From assembly GCA_951406725.2 (NCBI GenBank), contig OX597840.1:19778001-19842000 (forward strand): a stretch of 64,000 nucleotides of DNA, in the 5' to 3' direction. Below are positions 63,663-64,000 of the stretch, one piece after another. The notes beneath the pieces are model-generated. The model did not search any database, had not been told where the DNA came from, and worked only from the letters and a program-made list of their open reading frames with translations. Within the stretch, counting starts at the first letter, position 1; each line of letters starts with the position of its first letter. A program made the position numbers and the translations under genes. This DNA comes from Octopus vulgaris. Lineage: Eukaryota.

Positions 63663-63864
63663 CTCACATTTCCACAAGAGAAATGTATAAGTCACGTTTA
63701 TATGCACAGATAGGTTGGAATTATAGAACATATCAACCTGTGTATATATGTATAGATACACATATATATATATATACACACACACATATATATATATATT
63801 TTAAAGGTGTAGCGTTTGTAAGAGTATAGATTGAATTAATATATATGTTCCATTCTAGCAAAAA

Positions 63865-63902
63865 CTGTCTGATGAACGGCAACGAGAAACTCAGAGTAAC
63901 AG
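63865..63902 (+). ncRNA. Minimal type I hammerhead ribozyme motif (canonical core) in a ~140 bp dispersed element (63858-64000)
   Basis: CUGU-CUGAUGA-ACG(GCAA)CGA-GAAA-CUC(A)GAG-UA|ACAG. Stem I CUGU/ACAG; predicted cleavage after 63898; AATAAA ~30 nt downstream. Confidence 0.75.
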
Positions 63903-64000
63903 ATTTTGTTGAATTTTCTGCTGCTTTTAAATAAAGCATATTACTCTACCACTGGTATTTGAGTACTCTTTTTTCCACCTTGTTTCACATTTATGTGTTT

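What the first reader, a model, noticed from the sequence alone, without database searches (positions are those of the whole stretch)
63858..64000. Canonical-core hammerhead element in the Tis11-like intron, antisense to the host, with a paralogue at 40139
The two copies differ largely in ways that keep the fold. The stem II tetraloop is GCAA vs GGAA (both GNRA) and the stem III loop is A vs U. Stem I CUGU/ACAG and the GUA cleavage triplet are kept; the core is CUGAUGA vs CCGACGA. Both are followed by AATAAA and a shared ~90 bp tail. The 63865 copy is on the + strand, so it would not cut the minus-strand pre-mRNA, which fits selection against sense-orientation ribozymes (inference, one case only).
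Basis: partly seen in the sequence, partly recalled or inferred. Interest (0 to 1): 0.7.

Follow-up and report, generated by a model that had tools for sequence, protein, structure and literature searches.

The report
Octopus Penelope-retroelement hammerhead fragment
The motif is a real hammerhead-shaped sequence, but it is one of several thousand scattered end-fragments of a Penelope-like jumping gene, and it likely does nothing for the gene whose intron it landed in, so it is an ordinary example of a kind already described.

Summary
Observation confirmed: a type I hammerhead motif lies at 63865-63902 (+), inside intron 1 of a minus-strand ZFP36L2/Tis11-like gene, with a second copy at 40147-40184 that lies 11.3 kb beyond the stop codon, not in the intron. 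Both are 5'-truncated 3' ends (pseudo-LTRs) of a Penelope-like retroelement inserted in (TA)n. The genome holds 6,848 matches to a pattern covering both variants, 3,559 identical to the 63865 motif. The same motif flanks intact 711-aa ORFs with the Hydra-clade motifs (RWK, DKT, CxCX5C, C-terminal GIY-YIG without internal cysteines). The published coral Hydra-2_Amil hammerhead has the same core, stem I and stem III. Copies decay in the core about as fast as in flanks (5/624 vs 54/3930, p=0.34). Orientation bias was not tested and one antisense case says nothing; many insertions carry the motif on both strands. The scan noted similar Penelope hammerheads in other genomes. New family member of a known kind; low interest.

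The parts
63799..64000 (+). 5'-truncated 3' end (pseudo-LTR) of a Penelope-like element, young subfamily; runs on 7 bases beyond the window (209 bp in all), between (TA)n tracts
   Evidence: 97.7% identical over 213 aligned columns to the 5' pLTR of intact copy L145; TA tracts on both sides
63865..63902 (+). Type I hammerhead motif, dimer type: stem I 4 bp (plus predicted extension 63859-63 with 63904-08), core CUGAUGA, A.A mismatch, 2-bp stem II with GCAA loop, GAAA, palindromic stem III with 1-nt loop, GUA; predicted cut after 63898
   Evidence: sequence, scan; motif identical in 42 of 42 pattern matches found in 32 loci around long ORFs
63930..63936 (+). AATAAAG: end point of the short form of the element; poly(A)-signal role untested
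   Evidence: inverted arms and some 3' ends stop here and run into (TA)n
63937..64000 (+). About 71-bp extension ('tail') present at one end of most insertions; in intact copies it continues into the 5' UTR of the ORF
   Evidence: 5,521 matches to a 31-base tail pattern; L145 sequence; 73 of 90 tail-anchored loci end directly in TATA
40139..40286 (+). Second 5'-truncated copy, more diverged subfamily (U4C core, A10.1-U11.1 pair, GGAA loop; motif 40147-40184), 11.3 kb downstream of the host stop codon
   Evidence: 88.9% identical to intact copy L145 over 144 columns; 313 exact genome matches of its 35-base motif
51526..53544 (-). Coding exon 2 of the ZFP36L2/Tis11-like host gene (tandem CCCH zinc fingers)
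   Evidence: ORF, Pfam zf-CCCH E 1e-17, best homologue P0001 named ZFP36L2 of Octopus bimaculoides
53545..64000 (-). Part of intron 1 of the host gene (inferred length 17,639 bp; donor 7,183 bases beyond the window end)
   Evidence: exon 1 match and GT donor, AG acceptor

Best explanation
The motif is the hammerhead carried in the terminal repeat of a Penelope-like retroelement (likely Hydra clade), and this copy is a 209-bp 5'-truncated end-fragment inserted in a TA microsatellite, likely inert in the intron where it sits. Shown: family size, position of the motif at both ends of intact RT-endonuclease ORFs on the sense strand, (TA)n targets, inverted 5'-truncated arms. Inferred mechanism: in a transcript that runs through a tandem or full element, two hammerheads 3.36 kb apart would pair through the palindromic stem III (ACUC-N-GAGU, predicted duplex -7.4 kcal/mol), each completing the other's three-way junction, and would cut after GUA to release a unit-length element RNA; the endonuclease would nick (TA)n DNA and reverse transcription would start from the 3' end and usually stop early, leaving fragments like these two. 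The host pre-mRNA contains only the reverse complement, which has no hammerhead core.
For: 6,848 pattern matches, balanced over strands, control 0; 7,908 with the core left free. Motif 157 nt before the open frame and about 1,020 nt after the stop in intact copies; partial tandems with 3,356-3,365-nt spacing in L164-L166. ORF of 711 aa has RWK, DKT, YRDD, CNCKNESSC (CxCX5C), GVVY-x14-YTG without internal cysteines, CRLC and CRH, the Hydra-clade features listed in PMC8557442 section 11. Supplement File S2 of that paper lists Hydra-2_aMil with stem I ctgt/acag, core ctgatga, stem III actc-g-gagt, cleavage base a; by my count 17 of its 26 Hydra-clade rows have a 1-nt loop III and 15 of 26 a mismatch at 10.1/11.1. 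A 41%-identical metagenomic relative L163 also has a hammerhead-like motif after its ORF, read by eye. 53 of 90 tail-anchored loci have an inverted arm within 380 bp and 73 of 90 end in TATA. Dimer requirement and low in-vitro activity of such motifs: PMC4209133, PMC6765202.
Against: No Rfam match. The ORF has no Pfam match in the library scanned and no solved-structure match, so RT and endonuclease are called from motifs and by-eye likeness to published Hydra proteins, not from a profile or a tree. The unit (3.36 kb) is longer than the '<3 kb' typical of Hydra elements. Stem II is shorter than in all 26 published Hydra-clade rows, so cleavage by this family is not assured. Within the genome sample, the lack of shared variants in the 11 invariant core columns (0 of 11 versus 6 of 81 flank columns) is too small a contrast to show selection by itself.
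Confidence: 0.9

Rival explanations
1. The family's hammerhead is a vestige: the short stem II with its A.N mismatch and the U4C variants have made it inactive, and the element spreads without cleavage.
For: Stem II only 2 bp in the commonest variant; 11.1 takes A, U, G or C and U4 is C in 23 of 57 copies; U4C 'considerably decreases activity in vitro' (PMC3088659); Naiad elements multiply without canonical hammerheads (PMC8557442); minimum-energy folds are not the hammerhead.
Against: Core, stem I and stem III match a coral element letter for letter apart from the loop base while the flanks differ; subfamily differences inside the 38-nt motif fall at U4, N7, loop II, 11.1, loop III and, in 4 copies, the outermost stem I base; 2-bp stems II are common in natural hammerheads (PMC3088659).
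Confidence: 0.25
2. One reading: sense-oriented intronic copies cut or terminate pre-mRNAs and are purged, so surviving intronic copies, like this one, are antisense because of the ribozyme.
For: This one intronic copy is antisense. Antisense bias of intronic retroelements is widely reported for other elements (search listing only).
Against: n=1. A lone copy likely needs a partner to cut. 18 opposite-strand pairs within 1 kb among the first 100 listed matches, and 20 of 90 tail-anchored loci with a whole motif on the inverted arm, show that many insertions carry it both ways (whether these lie in genes is unknown). AATAAA is a confounder.
Confidence: 0.1
3. This copy has been adopted by the host, for example as the processed end of an antisense RNA that regulates the ZFP36L2-like gene.
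For: Intact canonical core; position in intron 1 of a regulatory gene.
Against: The intact core is shared with 3,559 identical copies and the fragment is 97.7% identical to an intact element, so it is simply young; no partner motif on the same strand within 23 kb in the window.
Confidence: 0.03

Closest known systems
Hydra-clade Penelope-like elements and their hammerheads (Craig et al. 2021, PMC8557442; closest motif Hydra-2_Amil of Acropora millepora; an octopus family Hydra-1_Obim is listed)
   Same: C-terminal GIY-YIG without the internal CCHH cysteines, RWK, DKT, CxCX5C, CxxC and CxH motifs, (TA)n target, sense hammerhead near the 3' end with 4-bp palindromic stem III and 1-nt loop; stem I, core and stem III as in Hydra-2_Amil.
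   Different: Not Hydra-1_Obim (other hammerhead and protein, by eye). Stem II is 2 bp over an A.N mismatch (3 bp or more, often over U.U, in the 26 published rows); U4C subfamilies (all 26 rows have U4); 3' UTR about 1.1 kb and unit 3.36 kb; tail about 71 bp versus the 30-40 bp stated for PLEs.
Minimal/dimer-type hammerheads in pLTRs of metazoan PLEs (Cervera and de la Pena 2014, PMC4209133; Lunse et al. 2016/17, cited through PMC6765202, itself not held)
   Same: Type I, thousands of mostly solitary truncated copies, some pairs about 3 kb apart around an ORF, some close pairs on opposite strands, palindromic stem III, predicted dimer.
   Different: Lacks the G10.1-C11.1 pair, the one-sided bulge and the long helix II of the 2014 consensus.
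Conserved intronic hammerheads of amniotes (mentioned in PMC6765202; details recalled)
   Same: Hammerhead inside an intron.
   Different: Those are few, conserved across species and, as recalled, monomer-competent; this is a young antisense copy of a multi-thousand-copy repeat.

Membership tests
Type I hammerhead ribozyme | Core C3-U4-G5-A6-N7-G8-A9, G12-A13-A14, A15.1-U16.1, H17 in order, closed by stem I | tested here: met
   Copy 63865 canonical; copy 40147 has U4C
Type I hammerhead ribozyme | Paired 10.1-11.1 at the base of stem II (usually G-C) | tested here: not met
   A.A in copy 63865, A-U in copy 40147; 11.1 is A 31, U 12, G 11, C 1, gap 2 in 57 copies. A mismatch here is in 15 of 26 published Hydra-clade rows
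Type I hammerhead ribozyme | Match to an Rfam hammerhead model | tested here: not met
   0 matches at gathering score in the window; lower thresholds not run
Type I hammerhead ribozyme | Site-specific self-cleavage | not testable with these tools
   Needs a bench assay
Dimer-type PLE hammerhead | Palindromic stem III with a loop too short for a monomer | tested here: met
   ACUC-A-GAGU and ACUC-U-GAGU; self-duplex -7.4 and -7.9 kcal/mol
Dimer-type PLE hammerhead | Located in both pLTRs, sense to the ORF | tested here: met
   10 of the 30 loci L132-L161 show the motif on both sides of the 727-codon frame on the same strand; 26 of 30 show it downstream within the fetched stretch
Penelope-like element, EN+ | Single ORF with RT and C-terminal GIY-YIG | tested here: met
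   YRDD at 344 and GVVY-x14-YTG at 580 of 711 aa; no Pfam or PDB match, so by motifs only
Penelope-like element, EN+ | Partial tandems, inverted 5'-truncated arm, tail at one end | tested here: met
   L164-L166; 53 of 90 loci with inverted arm
Hydra clade | RWK; DKT instead of DKG; CxCX5C linker; no cysteines between GIY and YIG; C-terminal CxxC and CxH | tested here: met
   All found, DKG and CX2-5CxxC absent
Hydra clade | N-terminal GxKF/Y not conserved | tested here: inconclusive
   GNKY occurs at residue 51 but homologue P0121 has ELKF there
Hydra clade | Insertion into (TA)n | tested here: met
   73 of 90 tail-anchored loci end directly in TATA; both window copies
Hydra clade | Placement in an RT phylogeny | not tested
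   Labelled reference proteins were seen only as text in a supplement; no tree was built
Non-LTR retrozyme (non-autonomous tandem hammerhead repeats) | Short tandem units without ORF | tested here: not met
   0 same-strand neighbours within 5 kb among the first 100 listed matches; tandems seen are whole-element tandems with ORFs
Host-adopted intronic ribozyme | Low copy, sense to host, conserved across species | tested here: not met
   3,559 identical motifs, antisense; cross-species conservation of the insertion not tested

The most novel reading that the evidence does not exclude
A recently active Hydra-clade element has pared its hammerhead to a 38-nt dimer with a 2-bp stem II over a free A.N mismatch, and its thousands of copies with and without the ribozyme (truncated before, inside or after it) show a ribozyme-specific antisense bias in introns, which would be in-vivo evidence that Penelope hammerheads cut host transcripts.
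Probability: 0.07. Interest if true: 0.55.

Novelty: new member of a known kind. Interest (0 to 1): 0.15.

Why it matters
For this locus, little: it is a young repeat fragment. The family is a modestly useful resource. The role of hammerheads in endonuclease-bearing Penelope elements is called unclear in PMC8557442, and this family offers many open-frame copies, several subfamilies that differ at U4 and 11.1, and thousands of truncated copies with and without the motif, which suit a cleavage assay and a controlled orientation test.

Tried and rejected
DNA search of the own genome with 63850-64000 returned nothing because common words are skipped; pattern searches replaced it. Rfam at gathering score: 0 matches. 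Pfam and PDB on the element ORF: no match. A first regular-expression search for exon 1 found nothing; scoring with the P0001 N-terminus found it. The tool for DNA around homologous proteins was closed, so the 3' ends of the 120 listed homologues were not seen. Searching the own genome with a 46%-identical homologue returned the same family in the loci examined, so no second, distant family was compared in this genome. Metagenome scan: 2 loci from 141 candidates; L162 ends just after the ORF, L163 shows the motif. Sequencing runs: no RNA holder listed on record; four runs guessed to be RNA were laid on intact copy L145: the terminal repeat was far deeper than the ORF, as expected from many truncated copies, two isolated joints each in one contig lay away from the hammerhead, and contigs show neither ends nor strand, so nothing on expression or cleavage follows. 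Lunse et al. (RNA Biol, PMC5785218) is not held; its supplement may already list this motif. The octopus repeat annotation PMC13282606 has 0 occurrences of 'hammerhead', 'ribozyme' or 'Hydra' in its main text; its repeat library and supplements were not seen and may hold this family. Paper searches hammerhead+Penelope+octopus, Nematis+Penelope, octopus+Penelope+retrotransposon+genome, hammerhead+cephalopod showed no description of this family in the listings. Considered and dropped: Nematis/Neptune clade (no CX2-5CxxC linker, no CCHH cysteines), Naiad (endonuclease is C-terminal), retrozyme, chance.

Full report
Observation. The two copies align over 143 columns at 90% identity, and a generic type I hammerhead scan of both strands of the window returns only these two motifs. 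Copy 1 reads stem I CUGU (63865-68), core CUGAUGA, A, CG-GCAA-CG, A, GAAA, CUC-A-GAG, U, A, ACAG (63899-902), with a predicted cut after 63898. Copy 2 has the same layout 23,718 bases lower. Within the 38-nt motif there are five differences, not four: U4C, N7, loop II, loop III and position 11.1. The last leaves copy 1 with an A.A mismatch under a 2-bp stem II. Rfam gives no match at gathering score and the single strands do not fold into the hammerhead as their minimum-energy form (z -1.75 and -0.69).

Host gene. The minus-strand frame 51526-53544 encodes tandem CCCH fingers; its best homologue among 504 hits is named ZFP36L2 of Octopus bimaculoides, so the genome is likely an octopus. The first 15 residues of that homologue match (14 of 15) a minus-strand exon 7.2 kb beyond the window end, followed by GTAAGT, in phase with the TTCCAG acceptor before 53544. 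The 63865 motif is therefore inside a 17.6-kb intron 1 and antisense to the gene, by homology. The 40147 motif lies 11.3 kb beyond the stop codon.

What it belongs to. A 35-place pattern covering both variants has 3,436 forward and 3,412 reverse matches in the genome and 0 for the reversed control; with the core left free, 7,908; the exact copy 1 motif 3,559 and the exact copy 2 motif 313; a tail pattern 5,521. In 4 of 6 stretches fetched around spaced pairs, frames with RT-like or GIY-YIG motifs lay between the motifs. A protein search of the genome listed 91 scored matches, many in 727-codon open frames. In the 30 loci fetched, 26 have the motif about 1,020 nt after the stop and 10 also have it 157 nt before the frame on the same strand; all 42 matches found in these and two neighbouring loci are identical to copy 1. 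Three 10-kb stretches show partial tandems with motif spacing of 3,356-3,365 nt, two of them with an inverted arm. The window fragment 63799-64007 is 97.7% identical to the terminal repeat of intact copy L145, copy 2 is 88.9%. Of 90 loci anchored on the tail (the first 90 of 100 listed, all on contig C1), 53 have an inverted arm within 380 bp, 20 with a whole motif, and 73 end directly in TATA.

Clade. The 711-aa protein has RWK (37), DKT (113), YRDD (344), CxCX5C (562), GVVY-x14-YTG with no internal cysteines (580), CxxC (667) and CxH (695), and lacks DKG and CX2-5CxxC. These are the features given for the Hydra clade in PMC8557442 (section 11 read whole; introduction; passages). Pfam and PDB searches found nothing and no tree was built, so the call rests on motifs. 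Supplement File S2 (read whole) lists 26 Hydra-clade rows: by my count all have U4, 17 have a 1-nt loop III, 5 have exactly ACTC-N-GAGT, and 15 have a mismatch at 10.1/11.1. Hydra-2_aMil has the same stem I, core, stem III and cleavage base as copy 1, with a 4-bp stem II. Hydra-1_Obim is a different family (by eye).

Is the core under selection? Among 91 tail-anchored copies (90 loci plus copy 2), 57 cover the whole motif; 34 truncated ones were left out. Common variants inside the motif sit at U4, N7, loop II, 11.1, loop III, stem II CpGs and the outermost stem I base (4 copies); none is in the 11 invariant core columns, against 6 of 81 flank columns, which is suggestive only. Rare substitutions are 5 of 624 cells in the core and 54 of 3,930 in flanks (p=0.34). 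So single copies decay without visible protection, and the evidence for constraint comes from the match to distant elements, that is, from the source lineage.

Mechanism. Shown: anatomy, copy number, placement. Inferred: a 1-nt loop cannot close stem III, but the nine bases pair with a second copy (-7.4 and -7.9 kcal/mol), so cutting would need two motifs, as in a transcript through a full or tandem element. PMC4209133 (parts 1-2 of 4 read) reports no cleavage by a single minimal motif and low cleavage by dimers; PMC6765202 (passages) summarises the same. PMC3088659 (section 8 and passages) reports that 2-bp stems II are common, that a U.U mismatch at 10.1/11.1 occurs, and that U4C lowers activity in vitro. 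Whether A.A over 2 bp still cuts is open; I put about one in four on the family's motif being a vestige.

The pre-mRNA would hold only the reverse complement, so it is not cut; that much is right. Selection for that orientation is not shown by one copy. Among the first 100 listed matches, 18 adjacent pairs lie on opposite strands within 1 kb; a lone sense copy likely lacks a partner; and AATAAA could bias orientation without any ribozyme. The genome-wide test needs an annotation that was not available. Sequencing runs gave nothing usable on expression.

Prior notes and literature. The scan holds no look-alike of this DNA and three notes on Penelope hammerheads antisense in introns of other genomes; they agree with my reading, came after it, and were not checked. 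The searches named under Tried and rejected showed no description of this family; the Lunse paper and the repeat library of PMC13282606 (passages only) were not seen and may contain it. The preprint 10.64898/2026.07.22.740005 was seen as passages only; papers as a listing only.

Verdict. Real motif, correctly placed, but an ordinary young fragment of a Penelope-like element of a described clade with a described type of hammerhead. New member of a known kind; interest 0.15.

Noticed in passing
G000:C27, 17.8-23.0 kb beyond the window end (L002-L003): A 5.2-kb inverted insertion of the same family (3.0-kb and 2.2-kb arms, 97% identical to L145, a hammerhead motif on each strand) lies about 10.6 kb upstream of exon 1 of the host gene.
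   Followed up: partly
window 63870 and 63873 versus 40152 and 40155: Both core differences between the two copies are C/T changes at CpG sites, so CpG mutation in source copies could explain them; stem II CpGs are also the most mutated stem columns (12 of 224 cells). U4 goes mostly with A11.1 and C4 with G, U or C at 11.1; shared ancestry and compensation were not told apart.
   Followed up: partly
window 63876-63885; PMC8557442 File S2: The whole stem II hairpin of the U11.1 subfamilies with a GCAA loop (ACG-GCAA-CGU) equals the 10-letter loop 2 listed for Nematostella Penelope-2_NV; chance or homology not resolved.
   Followed up: no
window 63945-63967; L163 1450-1500: A tail motif of the form CTCTAC...TTGAG(T/C)ACT recurs after the hammerhead in this family, in L163 and in coral Hydra-2_Amil (read by eye), suggesting a second conserved signal at the element end.
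   Followed up: no
L042-L131: 5' truncation or inversion points cluster at the 5' arm of the extended stem I: 30 of 91 copies begin at window-equivalent 63855-63866, 10 of them at the CTAG palindrome at 63855; only 3 begin at 63898-63901, next to the predicted cut. Local-alignment edges make these approximate.
   Followed up: partly
L042-L131: Inverted insertions would give long perfect hairpins in any transcript, which would likely mask the hammerhead and could be editing substrates (inference).
   Followed up: no
window 30556-30614 and 9206-9258; L005 3136-3286: Further short matches to the element or its flank (53-88 bp), without a whole hammerhead.
   Followed up: no
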